Shown in pieces: positions 184 through 64,000 of a stretch of 64,000 bases of DNA (position 1 is its first letter; each line of letters starts with the position of its first letter). The DNA is from an uncultured virus (IMG/VR IMGVR_UViG_3300043772_000843) (taxonomy: Duplodnaviria > Heunggongvirae > Uroviricota > Caudoviricetes), in the IMG/VR virus record IMGVR_UViG_3300043772_000843. One strand, given 5' to 3'. The translations under genes and the position numbers were made by a program. The notes below the pieces were generated by a model. That model did no database searches. It saw only the letters and a list, made by a program, of their open reading frames with translations, and was not told the DNA's origin.

Positions 184-422
184 GCACGCGAGTACGCGAG
201 CGGGCACGCGAGCACGAGGCTGGGTCGGCGGCACGCGAGCGGCACGCGAGCCCAAGCCCCCTCACGCTACCCGAAACCCTATTTACCAGTAAATACCCCA
301 CCGCGCAGGCACCGCACGCCCTGCACGGGGCTGACACCCGATCCCAGTCTGAGCACGCGAGCCCATCGCGCCACGCTACCCGAAACCCTATTTACCAGTA
401 AATACCGCCCTGAGCACGCGAG
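184..422. repeat. GCACGCGAG nonamer cluster plus 35-bp direct repeat
   Basis: GCACGCGAG at 184, 204, 231, 242, 353, 414; CACGCTACCCGAAACCCTATTTACCAGTAAATACC at 263-297 and 372-406. Confidence 0.9.
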
Positions 423-439
423 CAGGCACCTCGCCCAAA

Positions 440-850: not shown

Positions 851-1012
851 AATTTGACACTACTCAAAAACGACCGTGATCTATAGCGCTGACGAATTGA
901 TCTCCAAAAGATTTTTACCAGTAAATAGGTCGGTGACGATGTTACAAATAACTCACAGCCCCACCGGCTGTGTTTATAATAGTCGGTCCTCAACCCACCG
1001 GAGCCCCTGCTC

Positions 1013-2056
1013 ATGGACCTCATCTTCCCCTCCTCGCTCCTCAGCCGCGTCTACCTCTCTCCCAAGGGGGTGCCACTCTTCCGGCACAACGCCCACATGC
1101 CCCGCGCCGTGTGGGGAAAGCCCGTGCCTGCCTACGGCCTCGGAGGGACCGGAGGGGATCAAGTCTGGTACTTCGTCAGCTACCAGTACGCCGTCCCTGG
1201 CTTCGCCATTGAGGCGCTGCGTGCCTACGTTGCTGAGGGCAACGCCCTGCCGCCTGCGGACACGCCTGAGCGTGCTGACGTGTTCAACGACATGATCCAC
1301 CTGCCCGTGTTCGAAGTCTTGGGCAACGACCTGCAAGCGATGGGCTCAGGCCCCTACGCCGTCAAGAGCAACGTCCTGTTGGGCATCCGCAAGCGTGCCA
1401 TTCGATCGAGTGCTGAGCGCATGATGGGCAAGTTGGGCTTGCCTGCGGATGCCCCGGTGCCGAAGGAAGCGATAGGCGTGCTTGCCATGATGTACGACGT
1501 GAGTGAGACCGTCATTGTGAAGTCGCTCGGTGCGCCGGAGGTTGCACCGGTACCCAAAGCGCGTACTGACTACAAAGATGATGAGCGGTGGAAGCACGTC
1601 GTGAGGATGACGATGCTGGCGCGTACACACTCCTATCAGTTGTGGTTGCGGTCGCCTGTGGGCACGCCGAAGTTGGCCGGGAAGTTCTCAGCGGCTGACG
1701 CACTCATGCGTTACGAGGGCGAGCTGATCTACCCTGAGCGGTGCCCAGTGACGGGCGAGGTGCTGATCTATGACGCATACGTCAACAAGAAAGACCCACG
1801 CATGGCGAAGGTGGGGCGCATTGACATCCGTTCTCCTGGAGGGGAGACCTTGCCCTACGAGTCGGGCAACGTGATGTTGATGTCAGCGTTGGGGCTGAAG
1901 GTGACTGAAGGGAGGGTGCACGCTTCGAAGCTGACGGAGGGCCAGCATGCACACTGGCTGCGCTGGGCTGAGGCGCACACCACCAACACCAACGTCACCA
2001 ACACCAACGTCGGAAAGGACCCACTTGAGGACGCTATTGACGAACGAAATGCTTGA
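1013..2056 (+). CDS. Hypothetical protein with degenerate HNH/endonuclease-VII-like C-terminal motif
   Basis: 347-aa ORF with GGAG RBS; C-terminus contains CPVTG...GRIDI...YESGNVMLMS. Confidence 0.7.
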   Translation: MDLIFPSSLLSRVYLSPKGVPLFRHNAHMPRAVWGKPVPAYGLGGTGGDQVWYFVSYQYAVPGFAIEALRAYVAEGNALPPADTPERADVFNDMIHLPVFEVLGNDLQAMGSGPYAVKSNVLLGIRKRAIRSSAERMMGKLGLPADAPVPKEAIGVLAMMYDVSETVIVKSLGAPEVAPVPKARTDYKDDERWKHVVRMTMLARTHSYQLWLRSPVGTPKLAGKFSAADALMRYEGELIYPERCPVTGEVLIYDAYVNKKDPRMAKVGRIDIRSPGGETLPYESGNVMLMSALGLKVTEGRVHASKLTEGQHAHWLRWAEAHTTNTNVTNTNVGKDPLEDAIDERNA

Positions 2057-2081
2057 CATAGACGACACATTGTGTTATACT
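2053..2081 (+). promoter_or_regulatory. Strong sigma70-type early promoter
   Basis: TTGACA (2053-2058), 17-bp spacer, TGn-TATACT (2076-2081). Confidence 0.85.
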
Positions 2082-2087
2082 ATGTGT

Positions 2088-2700
2088 TCGGTGGGAGATC
2101 GTATCAAACACCAGCTCTTTAACAATTCATCACCGGGAGGTGCGTCTGACACGCGCACCGTTATCACCGGGGCTTTCTGTATTTACCAGTAAATACAGTG
2201 ACAAGACACTGAACCAGTGCAAAGCACACAAAACGATCCGCCCTATGCTGGAAGGCAGTTACATGTGACTCGGATGGAACGAAGCAACAAGGCCCTCAAA
2301 CGCGACGGTGCACGCACCGTGTAAGGCGTCGGTACGTTGTGGAGTTCGGCAATCACATGACTCTGCCCGGTAGGACATAGGGGGTGCGACAGATGTGCGC
2401 CCGTGTTTTCAGTTTGCGAGCTTGCTCGCTCTCGACGTGACCGACGGTAAGAATCCGCTTGGCGCGTAGGCCGCAGGGGAAAGACCCTGTGCAGGTTGTT
2501 GACGATACCTAAACGTCAACCGACAAACAATTCATTGACAAACCCGGGCGGACTTGTTCGCCTCGGCGGGTGCATGGTGCGGTTCGTCCGCACGGTGCAA
2601 GCCTAGCCGGTAGTACGGGTTCGCAGGGGGCGTGGCCCCCTGCCCAGAGTGCGCCGCAGTGGCGTATTGTGGGCAGCATGTGCTGCGGTAACTTAAAGGC
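2088..2700 (+). ncRNA. Putative large structured ncRNA or 5' leader
   Basis: No credible ORF; many nested complementary segments (see findings). Confidence 0.6.
2114..2127 (+). promoter_or_regulatory. rrn-type boxA antitermination element
   Basis: GCTCTTTAACAATT about 25 nt after the predicted start site; matches the rRNA operon boxA (TGCTCTTTAACA). Confidence 0.7.
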
Positions 2701-2708
2701 GACAGACC

Positions 2709-3050
2709 ATGAACGACAACGTCAAGACAAAGTCCCGCACCGAGCTTGAGGCGCGGTGCCTGGAAGAGATCCGCGCCACCGAGGCGTGGGACCCGCTGCC
2801 CATGCTGCGGGCGGTGTGCCGGGAGATCAGCCTCCCGTCGAACTTCGACGGGGGATACAAGGACGCCATCGCCGACAAGTCGGCGCGGCTCTCGGATCGC
2901 CTGCGCGAGGGCGAGGCGATGAGCAGGACATCCGCCGAGCGGCGGATGTACATCCGCCTGCTGAACGAGGCCAGCAAGCGTGGCCTGCTGAACGGGTACG
3001 ACTGCCCCCGTGCGACGAGCGCAGCGTGGGCCGCGCTGAACGAGGCCTGA
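2709..3050 (+). CDS. Hypothetical early protein
   Basis: 113-aa ATG ORF, first gene after the leader. Confidence 0.7.
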   Translation: MNDNVKTKSRTELEARCLEEIRATEAWDPLPMLRAVCREISLPSNFDGGYKDAIADKSARLSDRLREGEAMSRTSAERRMYIRLLNEASKRGLLNGYDCPRATSAAWAALNEA

Positions 3051-3094
3051 CCCCTACGGGTCAGAGTTTATTAGTAAATATAGGAGTGAGTAAC

Positions 3095-3385
3095 GTGGAC
3101 ATCATCACCAACAACAAGCCACGCCCGCTGGCGTGCCTGCTCGACCTGCCGGACAACGTCCGGGCTGACTTCGACTATGTCGCCAAGGACGGCGACTACA
3201 CCGCACGGTTCGTGCGGTACCTGGGCTGCTGGTACGACGTGTATGACAGTCAGAGCATCACCCGCGAGCTGGGCTTCGATCAGTTCAAAGGCTGGGACGG
3301 GATCGTGTCGGAGACATTCTTTAGTGGCGTGCTGTTCCGCCTCGTCGGCGACGACGAGGTCATCGTCGGACGGTATTTCGCCTGA
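3095..3385 (+). CDS. Hypothetical early protein
   Basis: GTG start after TAGGAG; VDIITNNKPRPL...VIVGRYFA (3' part of track ORF 2756..3385). Confidence 0.75.
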   Translation: MDIITNNKPRPLACLLDLPDNVRADFDYVAKDGDYTARFVRYLGCWYDVYDSQSITRELGFDQFKGWDGIVSETFFSGVLFRLVGDDEVIVGRYFA

Positions 3386-3433
3386 CCCGGTGCCCCCTCG
3401 GGGGCTTGTTTACTGGTAAATATAGGAGTGACA

Positions 3434-3667
3434 ATGGCTAATCGCAACGTAACTCTGTGGATTCTCAACGATGAGGGTCTGTATCGCACGGCTATGGACT
3501 GCATCAAGCAGTATCGCCACTGGTCTTCGTTCACGCGGAGCATGACTCCGAGGGAGCGGGCGGCTCACGCGATGCTCGACCGCCTGCACATGGCGGGGAT
3601 CACGCACACACCGGACGGTGCCAAGTACACCGTGACGGCTATCCGTGCGGCAATGGTGGGGCTGTGA
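3434..3667 (+). CDS. Hypothetical early protein
   Basis: ATG after TAGGAG; contains NVTLWILNDEGLY and TPDGAKY. Confidence 0.75.
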   Translation: MANRNVTLWILNDEGLYRTAMDCIKQYRHWSSFTRSMTPRERAAHAMLDRLHMAGITHTPDGAKYTVTAIRAAMVGL

Positions 3668-3668
3668 C

Positions 3669-3869
3669 ATGCCATCATGGCACCAACTCAAGGCGGGGCT
3701 CCCCAAGCTCAGCCACCCCACGCAGTGGTCGAGCTACAACCCGACCGGGCACCTGTCGGTGATGCGCCACGCATCGCACGACGAGTGCGTCGAGTACTGC
3801 AAGCGCACGGGGGACATCCCCGTGGCACCGGACAACTTCAACCCCGCCCGCAAGGGCGCGAAGGACTGA
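3669..3869 (+). CDS. Hypothetical early protein
   Basis: ATG immediately after the previous stop; tightly packed. Confidence 0.6.
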   Translation: MPSWHQLKAGLPKLSHPTQWSSYNPTGHLSVMRHASHDECVEYCKRTGDIPVAPDNFNPARKGAKD

Positions 3870-3870
3870 C

Positions 3871-4083
3871 ATGACACACAGCATATGCCCCCGGTGCGGG
3901 GACGACATCGACCCCCGGCGTACCGCCCTGGGTTACCGCCTGTGCCTATGGTGCGGGGAAGAGGACGCCAAAGCTGAGCGCAAGAGCTGGACGGTGGTGC
4001 CCATGCACAAATCGAACTACGTCCTGCTGACCGATAAGCGGGACCTGCACGGCATCAACAACAAGGGCGGAATTTACCGGTAA
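3871..4083 (+). CDS. C4 zinc-finger protein, DksA/TraR-like finger
   Basis: CPRCGDDIDPRR...RLCLWCGE. Confidence 0.7.
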   Translation: MTHSICPRCGDDIDPRRTALGYRLCLWCGEEDAKAERKSWTVVPMHKSNYVLLTDKRDLHGINNKGGIYR

Positions 4084-4116
4084 ACAACGCCCCCTGTCGG
4101 GGGCTGGAAGGGTATC

Positions 4117-4347
4117 ATGAACATCAACATCGAAGTCACCGACACGTTCGGACACGAACCCAACTACGGTTGGGCCAAGCGACAAACCCTGGAAGCCCCG
4201 GAGGGGCTGTCGAGGTATTCAATCGTCAGGCGTGCCAAGCACGCCGTAGGTTGGACGGGAAAGCGCACCGTCACCGTCGATCATGGCGACATGATCGAAC
4301 TCCGCCCACACGGGGAGTGCCTCGTGTGTTTCATCACCTTCAACTGA
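4117..4347 (+). CDS. Hypothetical early protein
   Basis: 76-aa ATG ORF containing EVTDTFGHEPNYGW. Confidence 0.7.
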   Translation: MNINIEVTDTFGHEPNYGWAKRQTLEAPEGLSRYSIVRRAKHAVGWTGKRTVTVDHGDMIELRPHGECLVCFITFN

Positions 4348-4390
4348 CAACCCGGGCACCACGGTGCCCACAACCAAGAGGCGATAGACC

Positions 4391-4783
4391 ATGAAAGACA
4401 TTAACATAGGTGACACACTCACCTGTGCCGAGACATGGAAGACGTTCATCGCAGCGCAAGAGGGCTGCACGTTCAACTACGCATACACGCCAGAGGGCGA
4501 AGTCCTCTCCGATGAAGGCGTGGACATCAGGCAACGCCGCGAGCTACTCGACCGCACACTGCCTTTCACGGGCTACCTGTCCAGCGATGGGCGACACCTC
4601 ACGGGGTGGAAGGGCAACGTGCTCGGCACGGTCGTGGACTGGGCCCCCTGTCGGCTGACGCGCCGCTCGTGGACGCACGGCAAGGACTACCGCTCAGTGC
4701 GCGTGCGCGACATCCACGGTGCCATGTGGTACGGGCGAGGCTCGCCCGGCATCGTCATCAACCTGCGCCCGTGCAAGGGCTGA
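4391..4783 (+). CDS. Hypothetical early protein
   Basis: 130-aa ORF with GAGG RBS. Confidence 0.7.
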   Translation: MKDINIGDTLTCAETWKTFIAAQEGCTFNYAYTPEGEVLSDEGVDIRQRRELLDRTLPFTGYLSSDGRHLTGWKGNVLGTVVDWAPCRLTRRSWTHGKDYRSVRVRDIHGAMWYGRGSPGIVINLRPCKG

Positions 4784-4829
4784 CATCAACCCCCGGGGGC
4801 TGTGCCCCCACAACCCGAGAGAGGTAACC

Positions 4830-5762
4830 ATGATCGACATCACCACCGCCGCCATGCTCGGCAGCCTCAACATCAGCGTGTGGGAAGCACGCATTCAAGA
4901 CAAGCGCACCAAGGACGAGGTGCTCGCCAACAAGGGTGCCAAGTCCAAGAAAGCAGCGAGTGTCTCGAAGAACCTGTTCAGCGAGTGTCCCGAGCTGGAG
5001 GCGATCAAGGCCTTGCGCAGCGAGGCCCGTGTCTGGTTCAACTCCCACACCTTGCCGTGGGATGACAACGGAAACAGGCTGATCACCACGAGGCAGTACC
5101 TCGACGTCGTGGGCAAGGCGGCGGAGTACGAAACCAAGTTCGACGGGTTGGTGCGGGCCTTCGTGTCCGCCTATGGCACAGCCATCAGCAAGCAGGCCTT
5201 CGAGATGGGCTCGCTCTTCGATCGTAGTGAGTACCCGCTGGCCGACGAGGTGGCGGCGAAGTTCCGCTTCGGGCTATCCCTCAGCCCACTGCCTTCGTCG
5301 GGGGACTTTCGGGTGGACATCGGCCACGAGGCACAGCGTCAGCTTGCCGAGCAGTACGAGAAGGCCACCGCCGAGCGTGTGGCCGGTGCTGTGCAGGATA
5401 CGTGGAACAGGGTGCGAGACCAAGTCTCTTGGGTGCGGGAGAGGATGACCGCCGTGCTTGAGTACAACCCCGACGAGGTCGAGGAGGTCCCCACGACTGA
5501 CGACACCGGCACGGTGGTGTCGGTGGAGATTAAAAAGCGTCGTCGCCCGAAGCTCTACGACAGCATGTTGGAGCAGGGCCTTGAGCTGTGCAAGATGTTG
5601 AGTGATCTCAACGTCACCAACGACCCGCGCCTTGAGGAAGCGCGGCGTGATCTGGAGCGGGCGCTGACCCGCGTCGACATGGACTCGCTGAAGGAGAGCC
5701 CTGAACTGCAACGGGCCACGAAGCAGGCGATGGACGACATCCTCGACAAGTTCTCGTTGTGA
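4830..5762 (+). CDS. DUF3150-like protein
   Basis: ATG after GAGG; LNISVWEA...K.L...HTLPWDDNGNRL...FDRSEYP...KFRF pattern; adjacent to the AAA+/vWA pair. Confidence 0.65.
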   Translation: MIDITTAAMLGSLNISVWEARIQDKRTKDEVLANKGAKSKKAASVSKNLFSECPELEAIKALRSEARVWFNSHTLPWDDNGNRLITTRQYLDVVGKAAEYETKFDGLVRAFVSAYGTAISKQAFEMGSLFDRSEYPLADEVAAKFRFGLSLSPLPSSGDFRVDIGHEAQRQLAEQYEKATAERVAGAVQDTWNRVRDQVSWVRERMTAVLEYNPDEVEEVPTTDDTGTVVSVEIKKRRRPKLYDSMLEQGLELCKMLSDLNVTNDPRLEEARRDLERALTRVDMDSLKESPELQRATKQAMDDILDKFSL

Positions 5763-5814
5763 CCCCCGGGGCTTCGGCCCCTTTATCAGTAAATCAATCT
5801 CTAGGAAACACATC

Positions 5815-6861
5815 ATGAAACTCAGCATCAACCAATGCGCCGCCGCTATCAACGCCGTCGGCCAGCACACCACCGTGCTCATCGAGGGTCCCTCGGGCTC
5901 GGGCAAGTCTTCGATCCTCGGCATGCTCAACCTGCCGACGCACCGCAAGGTCTACATCGACTGCACCCAGATCGACGTGGGTGACATCCAGATCCCGAGC
6001 GTGAACCACGCCACGGGGACCAGCACCTTCTATCCAAACGAGGTGTTCGGTGTGCATGGCGAGCAGCCCGTCGTCATCTGCCTGGATGAGTTTGGCAAGG
6101 CTCCGAGGTCAGTTCAGAATGCCCTCCTCCCTGTCGTGCTGGATCGCCGTGTCGGTACCCGCCCGCTTCCCGCTGGCTCGGTGGTGTTCGCAACCACCAA
6201 CCTCAGCTCCGAGGGCGTGGGTGACACGCTCCAGCTCCACGTCCGCAACCGCATGTCGGTGATCGCGATGCGCAAGCCCACCGTCGAGGAGTACATCAAC
6301 TACTCGCTGGCAAACGACGGCAACCCTGCCGTGCTGGCGTGGGTGCAGGAGACGCCGCAGACCTTGGCCGACGACGACACCGTGGCCAACCCGGACCAGA
6401 ACCCCTACATCTGGCACCGCAAGGACCCGAGCCGCAAGGCCTTCTGCTCTCCGCGCAGCATGACCGCTGCCGGTCGCGTGCTCAACGACGCCGAGCACCT
6501 CGACGACGACACCATGCGGGGCCTGCTCGCTGGCCTGATCGGCGCTCGCTCCGCCGCTGACCTGCATGTGTTCGTGCAGATGGGCAACAAGCTGCCCTCA
6601 TGGAAGGCCATCGTGACGAGCCCGCTCCAAGCCCCGGTGCCTGACACGCCGACGATGTGCATGATGCTGGTGCACCGTGCGATCACTCGCACCACAGAGG
6701 ACACGCTCGACCCGGTGATGGTGTACATGAAGCGCTTGCCGATGGAGCTGCAAGCAGTGTTCGTCAACCAGTTCCTGCGTATCCCGCAGCGTGCCAAGTT
6801 CGCTGCATTCAACAAGCCATTCACCAACTGGTGCATGGCTAACAACTGGATCATGGGCTGA
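5815..6861 (+). CDS. MoxR/CbbQ-type AAA+ ATPase
   Basis: Walker A GPSGSGKS, Walker B CLDEF, sensor ATTN, SPRS motif. Confidence 0.85.
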   Translation: MKLSINQCAAAINAVGQHTTVLIEGPSGSGKSSILGMLNLPTHRKVYIDCTQIDVGDIQIPSVNHATGTSTFYPNEVFGVHGEQPVVICLDEFGKAPRSVQNALLPVVLDRRVGTRPLPAGSVVFATTNLSSEGVGDTLQLHVRNRMSVIAMRKPTVEEYINYSLANDGNPAVLAWVQETPQTLADDDTVANPDQNPYIWHRKDPSRKAFCSPRSMTAAGRVLNDAEHLDDDTMRGLLAGLIGARSAADLHVFVQMGNKLPSWKAIVTSPLQAPVPDTPTMCMMLVHRAITRTTEDTLDPVMVYMKRLPMELQAVFVNQFLRIPQRAKFAAFNKPFTNWCMANNWIMG

Positions 6862-6909
6862 CAACCCACCACAACCCGCCCCCTCACGGGGGCTCCGAAG
6901 GAGAACCAC

Positions 6910-8127
6910 ATGAATCTGACAGCAGAAGAGCGCATCACCAAGGCCCGTAGCAAGATCATGCGCGACGAGCGCTTCACCGCCATCTCACCGATCCTGATGA
7001 TCGGTTCGTGGCAAGTGGTAGACGACATCCCGACAGCGGCAACCAACGGGCGTGATGTCTTCTATGGCCGGAAGTTCATCAACCAGTGCGACGACAGACT
7101 GCTGCGCTTCGTCGTCTTGCACGAATACTTCCACGTTATGCTCATGCACATGACGACGTGGGCCAAGCTCGACAAGGAAGACGCGCAACTGTCCAACATT
7201 GCCAAGGACATGGTGATCAACAACATGCTCAAGGCGATGGACCCGGGCGGGCAGTTCATCACCATCTGGGAGAACGCGTACTGTGACCCGCAGTACGATG
7301 GGCTCGACACCGGTGAGGTGTACAAGCGGCTCAAACAACAGGCCCAGTCCAAGCCGCAAGGCGGCGGGGGCAAGGAGGACAACGGCCCCAAGGGTCAACA
7401 GTTCGACCAGCACCAGCCTGCGGCGGGCGATGGGGACGGCGAGGGTGACGGCGAGGGTGACGGACCCGCACCCCTGACTCAGGCCGAGGCCGAGGAGGTG
7501 GCCAAGGCGGTCGACAACGCGCTGCGCCAAGGGGCGCTGATCGCAGGCAAGACGGGTGCTGGCATGTCCCGGGACATTGCGTCTCTCCTTGAGCCTGTGG
7601 TGCCTTGGCAGGACGTGCTGCGTGACTGGCTGACCAACACCGCCAAGGGCGGCGACCTGTCGACGTGGGCTCGGCCCGCTCGACGCTGGCTCGGGCAGGA
7701 TCTCTACCTGCCATCACGGTACACAGAAGCGGTCGACCGCATCGTCATCGGCATAGACACCAGCGGCTCCATCGACGACGAGCAACTTCGACGTGCACTG
7801 AGCGAGGTCGCCAGTGCCTGCGAGGCCGTCTCTCCACAGATGGTCGACGTGATCTACTGGGACTGGGCAGTCGCAGCACACGAGTCCTACGAGGGCGAGC
7901 GGGTGCAGGACATCGTCAAGGCGACGAAGCCCAAGGGTGGCGGGGGTACCGACGTGCGGACCCTGTTCAACTTCATCGACCAGCGGGGGCTGAACCCCAA
8001 CGCGGTGATCGTCTTCACCGATGGCTACACGCCGTGGCCTGCGGACCTCAAGCACCCGACGCTGTGGTGCATCAGCACCAAGGGGCTCCGCGCCCCGGTG
8101 GGGGAGACGCTGTATGTCCCAGCCTGA
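6910..8127 (+). CDS. DUF2201-type metallopeptidase plus vWA domain protein
   Basis: TAATNG, HEYFH (HExxH), acidic Gly-rich linker, MIDAS DTSGS, GGGGT, FTDGY. Confidence 0.85.
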   Translation: MNLTAEERITKARSKIMRDERFTAISPILMIGSWQVVDDIPTAATNGRDVFYGRKFINQCDDRLLRFVVLHEYFHVMLMHMTTWAKLDKEDAQLSNIAKDMVINNMLKAMDPGGQFITIWENAYCDPQYDGLDTGEVYKRLKQQAQSKPQGGGGKEDNGPKGQQFDQHQPAAGDGDGEGDGEGDGPAPLTQAEAEEVAKAVDNALRQGALIAGKTGAGMSRDIASLLEPVVPWQDVLRDWLTNTAKGGDLSTWARPARRWLGQDLYLPSRYTEAVDRIVIGIDTSGSIDDEQLRRALSEVASACEAVSPQMVDVIYWDWAVAAHESYEGERVQDIVKATKPKGGGGTDVRTLFNFIDQRGLNPNAVIVFTDGYTPWPADLKHPTLWCISTKGLRAPVGETLYVPA

Positions 8128-8395
8128 TGGGCCCGTCCCCGGGCTCCGCCCCGGGCGGGAGTGGGCGCTCATAAGCCGCGCTCGCCCACGGAAGTACGGG
8201 TTGTTTGAATACCACAAAGCACCGGATGGTATTGAAGAGGGTAAGTGGCTGGCGACGTTGACACACTCTGGCTTTCTCGACGGCTGGTTTGTGTCAGCGT
8301 TCTTGAACGGCGGCGTTCAATGGCAAGTCAGACTCAGAGAGTCTGACGATCCACCCTTTGAGTTAGCGGAGGTACTTTATGACGCAGTGTGTTGA
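8114..8395 (+). CDS. Paralog-array protein A
   Basis: ATG overlaps the vWA gene end; ends PPFELAEVLYDAVC. Confidence 0.7.
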   Translation: MSQPDGPVPGLRPGREWALISRARPRKYGLFEYHKAPDGIEEGKWLATLTHSGFLDGWFVSAFLNGGVQWQVRLRESDDPPFELAEVLYDAVC

Positions 8396-10214: not shown

Positions 10215-10299
10215 AACGCTCTGCAAACGCAGGGCGTTTTTGTTGGCCGAACGCTTTACACCCCGCAGGGGCAGGGCGTTTTTCATGGCTGAACGCTTT
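10215..10299 (+). terminator. Tandem terminator-like hairpins built from a 29-bp near-repeat
   Basis: AACGCTCTGC-AAAC-GCAGGGCGTT plus TTT, then AACGCTTT...AGGGCGTT plus TTT; repeats at 10229-10257 and 10271-10299. Confidence 0.6.
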
Positions 10300-24366: not shown

Positions 24367-24401
24367 GCCCCGGGTTGAGCTTGCTCCTCGGGGCACTTTT
24401 T
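24367..24401 (+). terminator. Intrinsic terminator ending the + arm
   Basis: GCCCCGGG...CTCGGGGC followed by ACTTTTT. Confidence 0.7.
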
Positions 24402-27400
24402 ATCTCGACGCGTCCATCGTCCGCTGCTCCTCGGTCACCTGACGACGCAGTCGGTACACATCCCGAGCCAGATCGTTCTGTTGAGCGCGTAGGTCGTTGA
24501 TGATCACGCGCCGTTCTTCAGGTGACAGGTCCGTCATCTTGTCGATGGCCCGGGCCTGAGCGTTCAAAGCGCGGATTGCCTCCATCGTGCTACGCACCTC
24601 ACTACGCACCACGTACAAGCCGAAGTTGTCCTTGAGGAACTTCTCTGCGTCGTCAGGGTTGTTCTCCAGCTTGCGCCTGTACGAGTTGTAGACCTGCTCG
24701 ACAGACCTGTCGAGGTTGTAGATCTCGTCGAGGTAGCGCATGCCGACCGGGTCCTTCATCACAGCCGAGGCACCTGTGAGCTGAGCCGCAATCGTCTGGT
24801 GCAGGGGGCGGTCAGTCCGCGTGGGGTTCACCATGACATCAGCAACGCTCAAGGCGATACCTGCGGACATACCGAACATGCCGCGCACCAAGTTCTCCAG
24901 CATGATCGGAGAGACCTTCAGAGCCTCAACCCCTGTCGACGTGGCGATGTCAGTCAAGGTTCTGGACGCAGCCTTCATGGCTTCTGAAGTGCCGGTACCG
25001 TAGCGCTCGGACGGGTCGAGGGCCAACTGCGCCTGAGACTCCAGTGGGCGTCCAAGGAAGAACGAGTAGTTGGCGAGGTTCTCAAGGATAGGCTTCAGGA
25101 CCTGCGGGGTGATGTTCGGTGCCGAGAAGATGTCGACACCGTTGAGCATCAGTTCCTTCAGCACCCGCATCGCGTCGCGCTCCTCGGGAGTACCTTGGAG
25201 CTTGAAGTACTGCACCACCCGTTCAGGGATAGCCTTGAAGAAGAACGACAGTTCCGCAGGCAGCGGGACAGCGGGCACGAAGCCAAGCTCCTTGCCACCC
25301 GGGATGACCCAGTTCCGGTCGCGGACGTAGTCGGGTAGGTTCTGGTACTCCTCGTCGTCCGACATCATCAGCGCGTAGCCGAAGCCCATCGCCGTGAGCA
25401 CCCCCATCCGCTTGTAGAACAGGTTGCGTGCGTAGCCCGTCGTCGCGCCGATGCTGCGCTGGGCGCTCGGGTTGCCTGCCGCTGCGAGTAGGAGCTTGTC
25501 CATCGAGCGGGCGTAGGCGTTGAAGAACGGGATGGTGCGGATGAGGTAGTCAGCGGTCTTCGACACACCTCTGCGGCTGAAGTTGATGATCTCCCGGGCG
25601 CGTAGTTCAGCCAGTGCCCGGTCACCGGTCTCCTTCAGCGTCTGGTTGTAGATCGCCTCACGCACGGCGACGTCCGAGGCCTTGGCACCGGCCTCCATGA
25701 TGCGCAGGATGGCCTTGCCGACGGAGCGCGGCGCGAGCCCCGTCTCCTCCAAGATGTTCTTCACATTGCCACCGATGATGGTGTCATAGGCAGGCACCAC
25801 ACCTGACTTGGCGAGTTCCCTGACACCGGCGGACTGTGTCCCCTTGATCTCGTTCCACCAATTTCGAGGGAAGTTCAGCAAGATGCGGGGGAGCATCGCA
25901 GTGGGGTTCTTGACTCCCGAGTGCACATACGCCCGGGTGATGTCATCAAAGACCTGTTTTACAGCGAAGGGCGGTGTAGCGGTCACGCCGATACGCAAGA
26001 ACTGCGAGAACTTCTGTGCCCCTCGGATAAACGCGGGTACATCTGTTGTCGGTGCACCAATGAACGCTGCGAGATTGGCAGGGTCCGGGACGTAGAAGAC
26101 TTTCTTCTGTCCGTTGACGTAGGTGTCAACGAGCGCACCCTGCTTATTGTTGTCGATAGCGTCACGGTTAGGGACAAACTGCGCGTAGCCAAGCAGCTCC
26201 ATCTCAGGCAGCGCACGACCAACTGCATCTGCCTTCATCGACTCATTGACCATCCAGTCCATGAGCTTCGAGAAGTTCTCAACAGGGTTTTGTGTCTGAC
26301 GGTCTTGAGAGCCTTTGTACTTCGCAATCTCCTTGAACGCAGCCAGCTTCGCGTTGGAGCCTCCACCCTGCGGAAGTGCCAGATTGTCGAAGTCATCAAT
26401 CCGGGAGAACGGGACGTAACCTATCGCATCCTTCCACACTTGGGCTTTGGCTGGCGTGATGCGGCCAGCCTCAACCATTGCGTCGATCATAGCGAAGCGG
26501 ATCTGGTCCAGCTTCTCACTCACTCCCTTGATGAACGCGTCAGACTGGAAAGTTTGCTCTGCTGTTGCAGCCTCTTGGGGAGTCAAGAAGAAGTCGAGCC
26601 CAGCGGCCTGCGGAGAGTTCATCAACTCGTATTCGCGATGCGAAGCCAGTGATTCCCCAACTTGATTCTTGAACGTTTCAGGTGCGATACCCCGTGTCTT
26701 AGCCTCAGCAGCGATGTCTTTGAGCACCTGCTTATAGCTGATGTCCTCACCCTTATAGTTCAGCGTCTCGACACTGAGCAGTCCGGTGGGGTCACGGCGC
26801 ATAGTGCCGTACTCTTTCACCTCGCTGGCAAAACGCGGCGCATCCAGTGCCCGAGACATGAGGAACACCGGGTTGTAGTCCCCTCGGTTGTCACGGATGC
26901 GGTTGCCGTAGGCCTTGGTGAAGATGTAGTCGACGCCCGCCAGCAGGTCCATCGCCTGTGCACGGAAGCCGATGGCTTTGTTGCCACCGAACTTGGCGTC
27001 GAGTTTGTTCTTCAGCGTGCGCTCTTCCTTCTCTCCGACGAGATCTGGTGTAGTCTCAGGAGAGAGATCGAAGTACTCCGTTTCAGGTGCAGTAGGTGTA
27101 GTACTTGCAGGGGCGGGGGACTTACTTGCCGCGTCAGCGGCGTCCTTCAACTTCTTGAGTTCTTCTGCTGTGAAAAGATTGCCAGTATAACCGCGAATGT
27201 CTAAGCCGGTATATCTTGAGTCTTTCACACCGAGATAGATAGGGTTACCCTTTGAGTTGCGGCCTTCAATCAAGCCTATATTGCTTGATGGTCCGTCAAT
27301 CCAAACCGGTTTCATCCCAAAACGAAGTATCCATGACGGGAAACCAGTCGTGTTCGCCTGCCTACCAAACGACTGGTACTTCTTGTTCGCCTCTTCAATG

Positions 27401-30400
27401 TGGCCTACGAGGGACTCATCAAGTACGTTTTCGGAGATGGTCATCAACTCGGCAAGTGCCGAAGTTTCTTTCCCTTTCAGCTTGAGTACTTCAGATATAA
27501 GTTTGAAGAACCTGCCAAGGAAAGTGCCACCAGTTGGGCTGGGTGTAGATGCAAGCCAATTCTGGAAATCAGCGTTGACCAATCCGTAGGTTATCAACTC
27601 TTTTGAGTTTTCTAGCGCGGCGGCGAACAGACGTTTTTGCCCCAACTCGAAGAGACCGTTTTTGTCCTGTTCTTTGAACTTAGAGACAAGTTCTTTATGG
27701 AGCGCGTTCAGTTTTATTGCCGCAGAACTTTGCGGCGCGTAGTTGATCTGTGCAACAGTAACCGCGTGAATCAGCTCATGTACAAGCGTTTCTTGTCTAA
27801 GAGTGTTCTCCGCAAAAGAGGTGTACCCGTTAATGGTGACTTCTACTTTTGTAGATTCTCCAAGACCACCAACACGCGTAGTCGCTACACCACGTGCACC
27901 CTTGAGCACCGCCCCGGGGTCAGTCAAGCGGAACGAGAACTCGACGCCCATGTTCGTCAGTTCTTCAACACGGCGCTTTACCTTGACCATGACTGCACGG
28001 TCAAGAACATCACGTGCGTTCAGAATGGCGTAGTCGACAACTTCATCAAACGTTGCGCCACGTAGAGCGGCATCCATCTCCTTCGAGTTACGCAGGTCTG
28101 CCTGTTCAAATCGTGTTTGCGTGTACTGGGGCCTTGGCAGTGTTCTGGACGCGGGAGCCGGAGCAGGCGCAGGTGGCTTAGGAGCCGGAGCAGGCGCAGG
28201 TGGCTTAGGAGCCGGAGCAGGCGCAGGTGGCTTAGGAGCCGGAGCAGGCGCAGGTGGCTTAGGAGCCGGAGCAACACGAGTCATCTCCGCCCATTGCGCT
28301 TTTTTAGCTTCGATTTGTCGCCCTAGCTCATCCCACTTTTTGCGTGCAGGTGACTTAGCCGCAGGTGCACGTCCAGCCTTAGTCAGCAGTGCCTGCTGTT
28401 GTCTCTTTAACTCTCGAATCTCATCCATCAAAGCGTCAGATTCAGGGGTATTCCTCCCACTGACAGACGGTGTAGGAGCCGCAGGGGGCGGAGCAGGTGT
28501 AGGAGCCGCAGGAGGCGGAGCAGGTGTAGGAGCCGCAGGGGCTGGCGTCTCTACCTTAGCGTACTTGGCAAGCAGATCAAGTGCAGCTTGAATGCTCTTG
28601 GTTGCGCTCTTGACCCGGTTCCCATCTGGTTCGGTATGTTGCGCGTAGAACGCGTCGTACTCGTCCTGGGGGATGCTCCCAGACACTTGCTCAATCTGCT
28701 CGATCAGATCTGCACGTTCAGCCGGAGTGCGCTTGGCAGGTTTGGGCGTCGGTGCTACTGCAACGGGCTCGCCTGTTTCTCCGCCAGCAGGCTGTCCAGC
28801 ATCCTCGACAGGAGGAACCAATCCGCTTGGCTCAGGGGCTCCAGCCCCTTCGGTGGGGGTGACGGCAGCGGGTCCGCCAGCCACTGGAGCGCCTGCTCCA
28901 CTTGGTTGTTCGACAGGTTCGACAGCACTTGGAGTCTCCGGTTCGGGCACCGCAGGTGCCGGGGTGGGCACCGCAGGTGCCGGGGTAGGTTCAGCCGCCA
29001 CGGGCGGCGCGGCGGGTTCGACGGCGGGTGCCGTAGGTACCGCAGGCTCAGGCAACCGCGCCAAGAAGGCGTCGATCTTGGCTTCAGTCTTCGGGTTCAG
29101 CGTCCCCTCTTGTCGCTTGGCGTCGAGGTACGTCTGCAAGACGTCACGGACTTCGGGGTCAGCCGGTGCCTTACCGACCAGCATGTTGTGGATCGAACCG
29201 CGAGTGAACCCGATCTTGGCAACCGTCGCGCTGTCAAGCACGTCAGGCAGGGGCGCAGGGGCACCCACCTTGCGGACTTTGGGCTCTTCGACAGGCGGGG
29301 CTTCCGTTGTGGGTGCCGTAGGCGGCGTCCACCGACCTCCACCGACCTCGACCAGACGGGCATCAAGCTCATCGAACTTCCGACGCGCAGGGCTCTTCGG
29401 TGCCGGGGGCTTGCCATTGACCAGCATGTCCTCACGCTGCTGACGCAGGCGAGCAATCTCTTCGCGACGTGCTTGGGTAGGATCGAACTCCTCGCGGGGC
29501 GTCACAGCCGCTACGGCTGCTTCATCAGCAGGAAGGAACCTGTCCGCACCCCGCTTGTTGGCTACACGTTGCTCGACATCTTCGCGCTGCCTGCGTGCAC
29601 GCTCGGCTTCCAAAGCCTTGAGCGCCTCGTTGCGCTGGTTGGTAGGGCGCTCCTGTTTCAGCGTCTCAATCGCCTGCGTCAGCTTTGGGTAAGCCTCGTT
29701 GATGGGCAACCCCAGCGTCTCGTCAATCGTGGATTGGGCAGTGTTGGCCGGTGCCGCTTTCGCCGCCTCCGCCGCCTGACGCTCGGCCTCTCGCTTGGCC
29801 TTGACCACGTCGATCTCGGTCTGGCCTTCGGGCGGCACCGGTTCACCAGTACCCGCACCCCGGGCTCGACGACCCAAAGCGAGGTCAAAGAGACCCTGTG
29901 CCAGACCACCCACGGCACCGCCGTAAGCCGCCTGCTCACCAAGGCCCTCGATGAGTTCCTGCTCGGGCTTGTAGACGCCCCGGGCAATCATGTTCTGGGC
30001 AAGGCCTGACGCGGCCTCCTGAGCGGCTTCCTCGCCGCTTGCGATGGCGATCCGCTTGATGCGGTCGACCGCCGTCAGAACCTCACCTTCCGGCACGCGC
30101 TTGAGAATGCGGAACGGCGCGAAGACCTCCAAGGCCCCCGGCAAGGTGCCCAGCGCGGTCGCTGTGGAACGCTGCTCTTCAGTGGCACCCTCGGTCTCGG
30201 CTCGCGTCCGCGCCTCGCCTGCACCGGCTCCAACGCCAAGACCTACGGCAGCGGTCCTACCCGCAAGGCCCAAGGGGCCAAGGCCCAAGAACGGTACCGT
30301 TGAGCCAACCGCTTCACCGAACTTGCGCCCAACCGTGCCCTCATACCCCGGAGCCGGGGCGAAGGGTGCCTTGGCAGCGCCAGCCACCTGGGCGATAGTC

Positions 30401-30657
30401 TCTCGGGCAGCGCGTTCTTGCTCCTCCGGCAGGAGGGCTGAGGCACCGATGGCAGCTTGCTCTACGAGCCCAACCGCACCGGGAATGACACCCTTGAAGG
30501 CTTCGCCTACTTGGCCTAAAAAACTCGTCTCAGGGGCCTGCCCTGCTTCAGGCGATTGCGCCAGCACCGCCTGAATGACTTGTTCCTGTGTCGCACCCGG
30601 TGGCCCCTCGATCTCATAAGTCTTACCGTTGGGGGCCGAGATGCGATAGGTCGTCAT
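24400..30657 (-). CDS. Large internal virion/ejection polyvalent protein (HExxH peptidase module, LPD38-like C-terminus)
   Basis: ~2085 aa; Pro-rich linkers; HELIH; INFSRRG...IPFFNA...DDEEYQNLPDYVRDRNW; last gene of the virion arm. Confidence 0.75.
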   Translation of the reverse strand: MTTYRISAPNGKTYEIEGPPGATQEQVIQAVLAQSPEAGQAPETSFLGQVGEAFKGVIPGAVGLVEQAAIGASALLPEEQERAARETIAQVAGAAKAPFAPAPGYEGTVGRKFGEAVGSTVPFLGLGPLGLAGRTAAVGLGVGAGAGEARTRAETEGATEEQRSTATALGTLPGALEVFAPFRILKRVPEGEVLTAVDRIKRIAIASGEEAAQEAASGLAQNMIARGVYKPEQELIEGLGEQAAYGGAVGGLAQGLFDLALGRRARGAGTGEPVPPEGQTEIDVVKAKREAERQAAEAAKAAPANTAQSTIDETLGLPINEAYPKLTQAIETLKQERPTNQRNEALKALEAERARRQREDVEQRVANKRGADRFLPADEAAVAAVTPREEFDPTQARREEIARLRQQREDMLVNGKPPAPKSPARRKFDELDARLVEVGGGRWTPPTAPTTEAPPVEEPKVRKVGAPAPLPDVLDSATVAKIGFTRGSIHNMLVGKAPADPEVRDVLQTYLDAKRQEGTLNPKTEAKIDAFLARLPEPAVPTAPAVEPAAPPVAAEPTPAPAVPTPAPAVPEPETPSAVEPVEQPSGAGAPVAGGPAAVTPTEGAGAPEPSGLVPPVEDAGQPAGGETGEPVAVAPTPKPAKRTPAERADLIEQIEQVSGSIPQDEYDAFYAQHTEPDGNRVKSATKSIQAALDLLAKYAKVETPAPAAPTPAPPPAAPTPAPPPAAPTPSVSGRNTPESDALMDEIRELKRQQQALLTKAGRAPAAKSPARKKWDELGRQIEAKKAQWAEMTRVAPAPKPPAPAPAPKPPAPAPAPKPPAPAPAPKPPAPAPAPASRTLPRPQYTQTRFEQADLRNSKEMDAALRGATFDEVVDYAILNARDVLDRAVMVKVKRRVEELTNMGVEFSFRLTDPGAVLKGARGVATTRVGGLGESTKVEVTINGYTSFAENTLRQETLVHELIHAVTVAQINYAPQSSAAIKLNALHKELVSKFKEQDKNGLFELGQKRLFAAALENSKELITYGLVNADFQNWLASTPSPTGGTFLGRFFKLISEVLKLKGKETSALAELMTISENVLDESLVGHIEEANKKYQSFGRQANTTGFPSWILRFGMKPVWIDGPSSNIGLIEGRNSKGNPIYLGVKDSRYTGLDIRGYTGNLFTAEELKKLKDAADAASKSPAPASTTPTAPETEYFDLSPETTPDLVGEKEERTLKNKLDAKFGGNKAIGFRAQAMDLLAGVDYIFTKAYGNRIRDNRGDYNPVFLMSRALDAPRFASEVKEYGTMRRDPTGLLSVETLNYKGEDISYKQVLKDIAAEAKTRGIAPETFKNQVGESLASHREYELMNSPQAAGLDFFLTPQEAATAEQTFQSDAFIKGVSEKLDQIRFAMIDAMVEAGRITPAKAQVWKDAIGYVPFSRIDDFDNLALPQGGGSNAKLAAFKEIAKYKGSQDRQTQNPVENFSKLMDWMVNESMKADAVGRALPEMELLGYAQFVPNRDAIDNNKQGALVDTYVNGQKKVFYVPDPANLAAFIGAPTTDVPAFIRGAQKFSQFLRIGVTATPPFAVKQVFDDITRAYVHSGVKNPTAMLPRILLNFPRNWWNEIKGTQSAGVRELAKSGVVPAYDTIIGGNVKNILEETGLAPRSVGKAILRIMEAGAKASDVAVREAIYNQTLKETGDRALAELRAREIINFSRRGVSKTADYLIRTIPFFNAYARSMDKLLLAAAGNPSAQRSIGATTGYARNLFYKRMGVLTAMGFGYALMMSDDEEYQNLPDYVRDRNWVIPGGKELGFVPAVPLPAELSFFFKAIPERVVQYFKLQGTPEERDAMRVLKELMLNGVDIFSAPNITPQVLKPILENLANYSFFLGRPLESQAQLALDPSERYGTGTSEAMKAASRTLTDIATSTGVEALKVSPIMLENLVRGMFGMSAGIALSVADVMVNPTRTDRPLHQTIAAQLTGASAVMKDPVGMRYLDEIYNLDRSVEQVYNSYRRKLENNPDDAEKFLKDNFGLYVVRSEVRSTMEAIRALNAQARAIDKMTDLSPEERRVIINDLRAQQNDLARDVYRLRRQVTEEQRTMDASR
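28154..28273. repeat. 27-bp perfect tandem repeat, about 4.4 copies, encoding PKPPAPAPA
   Basis: GGAGCCGGAGCAGGCGCAGGTGGCTTA units start at 28154, 28181, 28208, 28235. Confidence 0.95.
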
Positions 30658-32072
30658 GGGTTCACTACTGTTGCTTGACCCCACCCTGCGGTGGTAGCGC
30701 CCGGGGCCGCACTGGCTTGACCGGAGGTTGAGAAGTATCCTACCACCTGTTCTCGCGTAACGCCAAGAGGGGCGACTTGCGTAGCGACTGCGTCGATCTG
30801 CTGATCAATCAAACGCTGCCTTGCAGAGCCCTTAAGACTCGAAGGTATAGGATTCTTACTCTGTACATCCGCGATAGCTCTGCGAACTAAGCTATCTTTT
30901 TGGAAGTCTGATCTCCCAGCGGTAGCTTCACCCCTGTTAGCCGCAGCAGTAGCTGCCGCGTTGGCGGTGGTTTGTTTGATCTCCAACTCAGTATACTTCT
31001 CGTTCATAGCAGCGCGAATTTCCGCCGCCTTGAGCTTCGCCCGTTGTTCACCCTCGGTGTCCTTCTCCGCACGTGCCAGACGTGCTTCAGCTTCTGCTCT
31101 GGCGAGTTCCTGACGGAGTTTGACGAGGTTGGCTTGCGCTTCCCTACGCCCCTTCTGCTGACCTGCACGGGCTTTGACCAAACCAGTGGCAGCGCCCATC
31201 AGCGTGTCACCAAGTCGATCTGTACCTCTCATGCCCTCAAGGATTGCAGCCATGAGTTCGGGGTTCTCAAAAGCGTTCTGCTCTTGTTGCGCTTCAAGTT
31301 CCCGCATCTGCTGTTCCGCAGGGTCCATCGACGCTTTCAGCATCGCGTCATAGGCTTGGCGTGCTTCAAGGACTCGGGGGTCTACCGCTGCGGTACCCTC
31401 AACGCCCTTTGCCAACTGCTCGGACATCCGAAGGTATTCCGCCAGACCACCCCTCTGCGGTGCGGCAGCATCACCAGCACCACCAACACCGGCACCGGTA
31501 CCAGCAGTGCGGGCGGCAGGAGGACGAGCAGGGGGGCGAGCCACAGGAGCCGCAGCGGCAGCGGCGGCAGCGGCAAGGCCAGCGGGAGCCGCGAAAGTAG
31601 GCGGACGGTTAGAGTCTCGATAGGCCCGCTCCAATGCCGCTGCTTCCCTTGAAGCTGCACGTTCTTGCGCTCCGGGACGTTCACGAGATTGCGGGACGTT
31701 ACCTCCGAAAAACTCTACGATGTAGTCAGCAAGGGGCCTGTCAAACAGCCCTTCCGCCACGAGGTCTTCATCAAGACCTTCAAGGTCAGCTTCCGCCAGA
31801 CCACCCTTATCGAACGCCACCATCCCACCACTGGCCATCCCTGGCACCGGCTGTTGTGCCTGTGCCTGCTGAAGTGCCATCTTCAACTGGTCATAGATGG
31901 TAGGCGACATCTGCTGCGCCTGCGACATCGCCTGCTGACCCTGAGCAGCGCGTTCGAGGTTCGCTGTCTTGACAGCCTCATTCAGCGCAAGCAGTTGTTG
32001 GAACGGCTGCGGTTGAGACGCCATCGGATTGGGGTTACGGGGGGCGATAGCCCCAAGTCCAGCGTTCATCAT
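30654..32072 (-). CDS. Putative internal virion/ejection protein
   Basis: Ala/Gln-rich helical ORF; MASGGMVAFDKGG; position. Confidence 0.6.
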   Translation of the reverse strand: MMNAGLGAIAPRNPNPMASQPQPFQQLLALNEAVKTANLERAAQGQQAMSQAQQMSPTIYDQLKMALQQAQAQQPVPGMASGGMVAFDKGGLAEADLEGLDEDLVAEGLFDRPLADYIVEFFGGNVPQSRERPGAQERAASREAAALERAYRDSNRPPTFAAPAGLAAAAAAAAAPVARPPARPPAARTAGTGAGVGGAGDAAAPQRGGLAEYLRMSEQLAKGVEGTAAVDPRVLEARQAYDAMLKASMDPAEQQMRELEAQQEQNAFENPELMAAILEGMRGTDRLGDTLMGAATGLVKARAGQQKGRREAQANLVKLRQELARAEAEARLARAEKDTEGEQRAKLKAAEIRAAMNEKYTELEIKQTTANAAATAAANRGEATAGRSDFQKDSLVRRAIADVQSKNPIPSSLKGSARQRLIDQQIDAVATQVAPLGVTREQVVGYFSTSGQASAAPGATTAGWGQATVVNP

Positions 32073-63646: not shown

Positions 63647-64000
63647 CTCGGTGTTTTGGTTCTATCCCGTGTCACTTTGCTGCCCATTTTGGTACCATAA
63701 ACCGGGGGGTACTTTAGGTACCATTGACGGGGGGTGTTCGCATATTTAAGTACCCCGGGGGTGTACTTGTTAAAGTCCCACATACGGAAATTATTTGTCA
63801 TCGTGGGTGCGGAATACAGCGTAACGCGCGGGCGGGACTCCAAACCCATAGCGGGGGGTGGGGGGACGGTGGGGTCCAATTTACCGGTAAACACGTTGAC
63901 GGGAACCGTGGATATGTTACAGTCCGTTCACTGCATCGATCGATGCGGTCCGACCCGGCGGAACCGGGGTGACACAAACCCGAATGAGGTAATGTCATGG

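What the first reader, a model, noticed from the sequence alone, without database searches (positions are those of the whole stretch)
2053..2708. rRNA-style promoter and boxA driving a ~620-nt ornate non-coding RNA at the head of the early arm
Seen: a consensus TTGACA-17-TATACT promoter, then GCTCTTTAACAATT, then ~600 nt without a credible ORF in an otherwise gene-dense genome. Complementary segments nest in order: ACTGAA 2208/TTCAGT 2408 > GCACA 2224/TGTGC 2394 > CCCTATG 2241/CATAGGG 2376 > GGCAG 2254/CTGCC 2363 > CATGTGA 2262/TCACATG 2353 > GCAAC 2284/GTTGT 2336 > ACGC/GCGT > ACGGTG/CACCGT hairpin. A second domain has GTTGACG/CGTCAAC, AACCCG 2541/CGGGTT 2616 enclosing two arms, GCAGGGGG/CCCCCTGC, and a possible closure TAAG..CCGC 2448/GCGG..CTTA 2695. 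AACAATTCAT occurs twice (2121, 2526). Established: boxA recruits NusB/NusE in rrn and lambda antitermination, and phages carry large ornate RNAs (GOLLD, ROOL) and RNA antiterminators (HK022 put). Inference: either a large phage ncRNA made with host rRNA antitermination/folding factors, or a giant cis-antiterminator for a 22-kb operon that has no phage RNA polymerase. Alternative: part of it is a DNA single-strand priming site for the RepB'-like primase.
Basis: partly seen in the sequence, partly recalled or inferred. Interest (0 to 1): 0.88.

Follow-up and report, generated by a model that had tools for sequence, protein, structure and literature searches.

The report
Modular folded phage leader RNA, boxA
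The gene-free 600 bases ahead of this uncultured phage's early genes are a real, elaborately folded RNA of an uncatalogued family whose core recurs in a second, unrelated phage lineage, and it starts with the signal bacteria use to keep ribosomal-RNA transcription from stopping, so it most likely helps the host's RNA polymerase run through the phage's early genes.

Summary
Observation confirmed. Promoter (2053-2081), an exact E. coli rrn boxA (2114-2125) and nearly all listed helices are present, and most helices covary among relatives. The proposed closing helix and the repeated 10-mer are not conserved. The RNA (about 2088-2688) has no Rfam match. It was found in 21 of 22 contigs of related phages, as 34 leader versions; those measured span about 320-640 nt. 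It is a conserved scaffold (5' hairpin, boxA, domain I, T-loop-like arm, GAAAGA arm, 3' junction) with optional, swappable domains; the window's 96-nt tip is such an insert. The two-hairpin core also occurs in 13 leaders of a second phage lineage with a different terminase; three complete genomes of it lack the window's capsid gene. In the window's lineage no terminator follows, and the ribosome-binding site of a variable first gene comes directly after. Best reading (0.5): a cis-acting, boxA-nucleated, rrn-like antitermination leader for an early arm with no phage RNA polymerase. Main rival (0.3): it is processed into a stable trans-acting RNA. One metatranscriptome contig lies wholly inside it (weak). 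Function, transcript ends and host are untested.

The parts
2053..2081 (+). sigma-70-type promoter, TTGACA-17-TATACT; the -35 overlaps the stop codon of ORF 1013-2056
   Evidence: 17-nt spacer in 31 of 31 lineage-1 leaders that hold a promoter (16-18 allowed)
2088..2113 (+). 5' hairpin before boxA (boxB-like position); start site inferred near 2088
   Evidence: predicted; a GTCGG..CGAC-type hairpin with GGAGAT/GGAAAT loop seen by eye in relatives
2114..2125 (+). boxA, identical to E. coli rrnB boxA
   Evidence: 0 mismatches in 16, 1 in 11, 2 in 3, 3 in 1 of 31; controls 4 or more in 22 of 22
2131..2206 (+). domain I: two hairpins ending in TGACAAGA; the second hairpin tip (2180-2195) is a palindrome repeated 9 times in the window
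   Evidence: end motif in 23 of 34 lineage-1 and 13 of 13 lineage-2 leaders (loose pattern)
2208..2413 (+). domain II: long irregular arm with a conserved purine-rich internal loop (2248-2255 / 2367-2375); optional, replaced by other domains in relatives
   Evidence: loop in 13 of 34; absent from L126
2263..2358 (+). 96-nt insert at the tip of domain II
   Evidence: replaced by a 10-nt hairpin in near-identical L191, L200, L202; covarying copies in L194 and L325
2430..2470 (+). core arm 1 with 7-nt loop TAAGAAT (2448-2454), T-loop-like (5 + 2 bulged)
   Evidence: TAAGA invariant in 23 of 23 across both lineages (part of the search pattern)
2472..2491 (+). core arm 2 with 6-nt loop GAAAGA (2479-2484)
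   Evidence: 5 of 7 pairs with double changes; 4 of 5 across both lineages
2494..2523 (+). optional hairpin with CCT(A/G)AA-type loop
   Evidence: 20 of 34 leaders, stems covary
2541..2621 (+). optional three-way domain closed by AACCCG / CGGGTT
   Evidence: 7 of 34 leaders, two with different inner arms
2623..2688 (+). 3' junction: GCAGGGGG/CCCCCTGC, a variable arm, and the GCAGC..GCTGC hairpin; four GCAG/CTGC repeats allow alternative registers
   Evidence: 9-bp base of the variable arm: 9 of 9 paired in 22 of 31, 8 of 9 in 8; 32 and 31 of 34 (partly the search pattern)
2695..3050 (+). ribosome-binding site (2695-2701) and first early ORF (2709-3050), a variable gene
   Evidence: ORF found in 3 of 44 loci tested; other first genes in relatives

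Best explanation
A cis-acting 5' leader of the early operon that works like the rrn leader, extended by a folded RNA scaffold. Step 1 (inferred from consensus): host sigma-70 polymerase starts near 2088. Step 2 (sequence shown, binding inferred from E. coli): the 5' hairpin and boxA load NusB-S10 with NusA, NusG and SuhB, giving an rrn-type antitermination complex. Step 3 (inferred): this keeps Rho off the 600 untranslated bases, chaperones their folding, and makes the polymerase processive through the 21.6-kb early arm, since the phage has no polymerase of its own. Step 4 (structure shown by covariation, role inferred): the conserved scaffold stays on the transcript and adds an RNA-based contribution, as put or EAR RNAs do, by holding or modifying the elongation complex and shielding the 5' end. 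Optional domains are expansions exchanged between phages of one host group.
For: Same place and orientation in every full leader read: after the early promoter, before the first early gene. boxA within 1 mismatch in 27 of 31. In the last viral scan a boxA-like match lay upstream in 24 of 27 core-bearing loci and 0 of 39 others (pattern tuned by me). No terminator-like site inside any of 34 lineage-1 leaders after the core. The ribosome-binding site follows the last hairpin within about 1-60 nt, most often 6. The first gene varies, so control is operon-wide. No RNA polymerase, N or Q family in 77 ORFs. One candidate intrinsic terminator mid-arm at 10215-10245. Single copy per genome. boxA suffices for rrn complex formation and blocks Rho (PMC13753749, passages).
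Against: No experiment shows read-through. boxA alone would serve for rrn-type antitermination, so the 300-600 nt of conserved structure need another reason. Phage boxA often leads RNA genes: 22 of 57 distinct promoter-boxA loci carry tRNAs within 900 nt. In lineage 2 boxA is weaker (2 or fewer mismatches in 6 of 13; 3 no better than control). Several lineage-2 relatives keep boxA-like sites but lack the core. Terminator-like sites in the arm are few and mostly weak. L365's leader folds only at z -1.6.
Confidence: 0.5

Rival explanations
1. The leader is an RNA gene or a small array of them. boxA only protects and chaperones its synthesis, as for rRNA, tRNA and CRISPR arrays. Host RNases cut it from the early transcript, and the folded RNA acts in trans early in infection as a scaffold or as a decoy for a host RNA-binding or defence protein, in the manner proposed for GOLLD and ROOL.
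For: Motif-level conservation typical of tertiary structure (T-loop-like loop, GAAAGA loop at 29-34 nt in 36 of 36 leaders with both, purine-rich internal loop). Domains swap like the small early genes beside them. One contig of a freshwater metatranscriptome covers 2213-2492 with 10 differences and nothing else in 900-8200 at like identity. boxA precedes tRNA arrays in 22 of 57 loci. The diverged leader L007 can form a long 5'/3' closing helix.
Against: No own terminator, and no conserved closing helix in the window's group. Always single copy and always in leader position. The expression hint is one contig of depth 4 from one study, without strand or ends.
Confidence: 0.3
2. A conformational switch. 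The segment before core arm 1 (2429-2435) and the 3' CCCCCTGC compete for GCAGGGGG (2623-2630), so the core junction forms first and is then opened or kept by a ligand or protein, which gates early expression.
For: The alternative duplex ranks first among about 160-350 other downstream partners in 18 of 29 leaders. The matching ACTGC / GCA(A)GT pairing is seen by eye in lineage 2. Loop sizes 7 and 6 equal those of the T-loop and receptor in FMN and cobalamin riboswitches (10.1101/2022.12.26.521914, passages).
Against: The rival duplex is always weaker than the 3' one and weak in the window (-7.9 against -21.2 kcal/mol). Both partners are C-rich, so the match may come from a duplication. No terminator or anti-RBS helix to act as output. 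The loop sequences miss the riboswitch consensus (YGNRA, U-ANA).
Confidence: 0.1
3. A passive mRNA stabiliser and processing leader: long irregular stems are RNase III sites or 5' shields that set early mRNA levels, with no contact to polymerase beyond boxA.
For: Long irregular stems; a stable hairpin about 6 nt before the ribosome-binding site.
Against: It does not explain invariant loop sequences and spacing across two unrelated phage lineages.
Confidence: 0.07
4. A DNA-level element (priming site for the primase, origin or packaging signal).
For: The region lies about 2.7 kb from the probable genome end and holds one copy of a repeated palindrome.
Against: 62 G-U against 1 C-A cell in the core. 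GNRA/UNCG tetraloops are 29 of 109 on + and 7 of 103 on -. The + strand folds better in 28 of 29. Fixed link to a promoter and boxA. The palindrome is replaced in many relatives.
Confidence: 0.03

Closest known systems
E. coli rrn leader antitermination site (boxB-boxA-boxC; NusA, B, E, G, SuhB, S4)
   Same: Strong sigma-70-type promoter, 5' hairpin, identical boxA 32 nt after the -10, then a long untranslated structured RNA (PMC8632103 and PMC13753749, passages).
   Different: It is on a phage, followed by mRNA rather than rRNA. boxC is not clearly present. The RNA after boxA is a new family with swappable domains.
RNA antiterminators HK022 put and B. subtilis EAR; lambda nut (boxA-boxB) with N
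   Same: Structured cis RNA at the start of a long early operon (PMC8632103, passages).
   Different: put is a double hairpin of about 65 nt; this is 320-640 nt and multi-domain. No N-like gene was found, and the purine-rich loop lies about 365 nt after boxA in the window.
GOLLD and ROOL large ornate phage RNAs; the 800-nt RNA of Vibrio phage ICP1
   Same: Large, covarying, phage-borne, unknown function. GOLLD also has conserved and variable regions (10.1101/2024.12.08.627333; PMC7567579; passages).
   Different: No Rfam match. Not near tRNA genes (none in the window). Sits in leader position with no terminator.
T-loop / 4-nt receptor pair of FMN and class-II cobalamin riboswitches
   Same: A 7-nt terminal loop starting U and with A at position 5, and a 6-nt loop nearby.
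   Different: Loops are UAAGA and GAAA(GA), not YGNRA and U-ANA. No aptamer match, and docking was not tested.
boxA-rich early non-coding region of E. coli phage phiEco32
   Same: Host promoters with boxA before the early genes: 7 boxA-like matches in 1.95 kb.
   Different: No match to the core models. An analogue, not a homologue.

Membership tests
rrn-type antitermination site | boxA consensus near the 5' end of the transcript | tested here: met
   exact in the window; within 1 mismatch in 27 of 31 lineage-1 leaders
rrn-type antitermination site | hairpin (boxB) before boxA | tested here: met
   predicted hairpin 2088-2113 and in relatives; covariation not counted
rrn-type antitermination site | boxC after boxA | tested here: inconclusive
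   CTGTGGGC-like strand of domain I in some relatives, absent in the window
rrn-type antitermination site | NusB-S10 binding and read-through of Rho sites | not testable with these tools
   needs binding and reporter assays
lambda nut / N | boxB hairpin directly after boxA | tested here: not met
   domain I follows, with variable loops
lambda nut / N | phage N-type protein | tested here: inconclusive
   no Pfam hit in 77 ORFs; no clear arginine-rich small early ORF; such proteins diverge fast
HK022 put | double hairpin of about 65 nt | tested here: not met
   multi-domain, 323-637 nt; size from PMC8632103
HK022 put | factor-independent read-through by contact with polymerase | not testable with these tools
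   needs in vitro transcription
GOLLD / ROOL | match to the family covariance model | tested here: not met
   0 hits at gathering score in the window and in the leaders of 10 other loci; best E 5.1 locally
GOLLD / ROOL | discrete, abundant transcript | tested here: inconclusive
   one contig inside the leader in 1 of 2 RNA runs laid; contigs give no ends or level
FMN/cobalamin T-loop-receptor pair | 7-nt and 6-nt terminal loops | tested here: met
FMN/cobalamin T-loop-receptor pair | consensus YGNRA and U-ANA | tested here: not met
   UAAGA and GAAA

The most novel reading that the evidence does not exclude
A mobile class of phage RNA machine: a conserved tertiary core (T-loop-like arm and GAAAGA arm) made under a borrowed rRNA transcription complex, decorated with exchangeable RNA domains that are traded between unrelated phage lineages as early genes are. 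Each domain would act on a host target (polymerase, nuclease or defence sensor), so the leader would be an RNA-only host-takeover cassette and not just an antitermination site.
Probability: 0.25. Interest if true: 0.88.

Novelty: new variant of a known kind. Interest (0 to 1): 0.7.

Why it matters
It adds a large structured RNA family with strong covariation, present in two phage lineages that share neither capsid nor terminase type. It suggests how lytic phages with no polymerase and no N or Q protein could transcribe a 20-kb early arm: by borrowing the host rRNA antitermination complex. It also makes the open question of what large phage RNAs do testable. Natural deletion series exist (323 to 637 nt; near-identical pairs with and without one domain), boxA is the E. 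coli sequence so a reporter in a laboratory strain is feasible, and the short core is a ready target for probing or cryo-EM.

Tried and rejected
Rfam: no match in the window or in the leaders of 10 loci. blastn of two leaders against 50,697 phage records: one 33-nt promoter hit for the window, none for L365. Two pattern scans of the GTDB genomes: 0 hits, so no prophage or host link. Core model on whole records of DSL-LC04, MW202675, Rollin, Caulobacter RW and Pag-Yong1: 0 of 5. On MEP301 and parts of phiEco32 and HTVC023P: none. On 100 other promoter-boxA loci: best E 0.63. Pag-Yong1 has an 800-nt gene-free leader, z -1.5, no Rfam or core match. Most of the 120 metagenome pattern hits were chance; only those with the T-loop motif were kept. 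The second protein-based scan returned the same 22 contigs. The polymerase search in lineage 2 had no positive control and shows nothing. Runs X2 and X3 are probably DNA and X5 does not cover the leader; lack of cover is no evidence. One search used a mis-registered structure string and is void (redone). One search folded a coding stretch by my coordinate error (z -2.5; kept as a control). One search stopped at its last row (29 of 30 done). The loose pattern count for the CCT loop was dropped for the fold-checked count. Hairpins before the first gene in lineage 2 look terminator-like by eye, but my strict scan flagged 1 of 13. ORF 1013-2056 as partner protein: no family, only HNH/HTH-like leads under 0.85, not found by tblastn in the lineage-2 loci. 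Literature searches found no description. The alignment files of PMC10690425 (8,495 short viral RNA candidates) could not be searched, so single modules may be listed there.

Full report
1. Observation. boxA equals the E. coli rrnB sequence fetched. The region folds better than shuffles (z -4.1), but coding stretches of this genome reach -2.6, so homologues were needed. Rfam gives nothing.

2. The phage. The window is almost a whole genome (related contigs reach 61-67 kb). The major capsid protein is 72% identical to that of Pag-Yong1/MinM2/Pra-JY27 and 63% to pelagiphage HTVC023P. The + strand arm 2709-24318 holds small unknown genes, an AAA-vWA pair, DNA polymerase A, a helicase and a primase-like protein. 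No RNA polymerase, sigma, N or Q family appeared among 77 ORFs. A G-rich run near 63,830, a further promoter near 63,897 and a gene ending at window 68 suggest the genome end lies about 2.7 kb upstream of the leader (inference). The host is unknown; a proteobacterium is inferred from the promoter and boxA.

3. Homologues in the window's lineage. A neighbouring 310-aa gene gave 22 contigs; 21 hold the leader, and the 22nd ends 1.4 kb upstream of the gene. Pattern scans added more. I kept 34 versions, some nearly identical, 3 of them fragments without promoter. All 31 with a promoter have a 17-nt spacer; boxA has 0, 1, 2 and 3 mismatches in 16, 11, 3 and 1, while control stretches have 4 or more in 22 of 22. 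The 29 leaders measured span 303-637 nt including fragments, with z from -2.3 to -11.1 (8 shuffles each, rough).

4. Anatomy. The order is fixed: 5' hairpin, optional hairpins, boxA, domain I, a variable domain II, core arm 1 (loop TAAGA plus two), core arm 2 (loop GAAAGA), optional hairpins, 3' junction, ribosome-binding site. Core: 19 sequences, 22 pairs, 99.8% paired, 8 pairs with double changes, slid controls 20-45%. Domain II of the window's type: 13 of 27 pairs with double changes. At least three other domains fill the same slot. The window's 96-nt tip is a 10-nt hairpin in three near-identical relatives and covaries in two others. The base of the variable 3' arm is fully paired in 22 of 31 and 8 of 9 in 8 more. 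The strand is + and the molecule RNA: 62 G-U cells against 1 C-A, and GNRA/UNCG loops 29 of 109 against 7 of 103. The shuffle control does not correct for kinship, so these counts are support, not probabilities.

5. A second lineage. A scan for the two core loops gave 56 loci. The lineage-1 model, given 41 of these, scored 14 outside lineage 1 at E 2e-6 to 2e-3. These leaders lie beside a G-rich run, point away from a terminase gene 35-39% identical to those of EXVC031P, MEP301 and BcepC6B, and precede another first gene. Three complete genomes have one copy each and no match to the window's capsid protein. Across 23 sequences of both lineages 9 core pairs are 97.6% paired, 5 with double changes. 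The loop-to-loop distance is 31-32 nt in lineage 1 and 29-34 in lineage 2 (the pattern allowed a wider range). The two lineages also share one small early gene, which fits exchange in a common host group. Against a fixed unit: boxA is weaker here, 11 of 34 lineage-1 leaders lack the adjacent GAAAGA arm, and 12 of 16 loci found through the lineage-2 first gene have boxA-like sites but no core match. The domain I internal-loop motif also follows boxA in a third group of phages.

6. Mechanism. boxA is established as sufficient to assemble the rrn complex, which blocks Rho and protects rRNA and CRISPR transcripts (PMC13753749, passages) and chaperones folding (PMC8632103, passages). That step is well supported by sequence. 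What the scaffold adds is inferred. Position, single copy, lack of a terminator (this phage's clear terminators are at 99-127 and 130-162) and the adjacent ribosome-binding site of a variable gene favour a cis role for the whole arm (0.5). The amount of conserved structure, the frequent use of boxA before tRNA arrays (22 of 57 distinct loci) and one metatranscriptome contig confined to 2213-2492 (one study, depth 4, no strand) keep a processed trans-acting RNA open (0.3). A switch between alternative duplexes is possible but has no output element (0.1).

7. Known systems. It works like an rrn leader; the boxA and 5' hairpin tests are met and function is untested. It is not a lambda nut, put, GOLLD or ROOL member by the features tested. 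The core loops match the sizes but not the consensus of the FMN/cobalamin T-loop-receptor pair (10.1101/2022.12.26.521914, passages). phiEco32 has an analogous boxA-rich early region without the core. I saw passages only of six papers. Eight searches found no description; the library lacks most subscription papers, and the model files of PMC10690425 could not be searched. Earlier notes of this scan describe similar boxA-led leaders in other phages. They are unchecked, except phiEco32 in part, and suggest the design is recurrent.

8. Verdict. A real, uncatalogued, modular RNA family; a new variant of boxA-led antitermination leaders; interest 0.7.

Noticed in passing
window 282, 391, 914, 2182, 3067, 3409, 4073, 5782, 63880: A palindrome TTTAC(C/T)(A/G)GTAAA-type repeated 9 times, all in or near the early end, beside promoters and ribosome-binding sites; likely the site of a phage regulator. 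Present in 9 of 16 related loci checked, absent in 7.
   Followed up: partly
window 63,820-64,000 and 1-68; L141:3500-4220: G-rich run (probable genome end), a promoter overlapped by the palindrome, a short hairpin leader and an alanine-rich first gene; about 500 bp are missing between the window's end and start.
   Followed up: partly
window 185-430: Repeated GCACGCGAG units and two copies of a 30-nt repeat holding the palindrome, followed by an AT-rich stretch; possible origin or packaging region.
   Followed up: no
window 1013-2056: Fast-evolving 347-aa ORF kept upstream of the leader in lineage 1 (18 loci, 25-100% identity); no family, weak HNH/HTH leads.
   Followed up: partly
L372-L383, about 350 nt before the first gene: Lineage-2 relatives with two boxA-like sites about 105 nt apart, each followed by another folded module, without the core.
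   Followed up: partly
L013, L026, L051, L063, L077, L083, L087, L117: A third phage group with promoter, boxA and the domain I internal-loop motif in a leader of about 200 nt.
   Followed up: partly
L007:1850-2540 (-): Same capsid family as the window (70%); 650-nt boxA-led leader, z -7.0, with a T-loop-like hairpin and a long closing helix made of a repeated palindrome.
   Followed up: partly
L026:4791-4922 (+); L372:1357-1463 (-): Rfam hits Betaproteobacteria-1 RNA and Atu_At1 near the genome ends of these phages.
   Followed up: no
L311:990-1800 (-), Pag-Yong1: About 800 gene-free bases ahead of the first early gene of the nearest cultured relative, with a partial boxA-like run.
   Followed up: partly
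L010, L024, L030, L042, L045, L046, L050, L059: Other phage promoter-boxA loci followed by 300-600 nt without an obvious gene or, in most, a tRNA; candidate further RNA families.
   Followed up: no
window 24400-30684 (-): 2,094-aa protein with an LPD38 domain, probable ejected virion protein.
   Followed up: no
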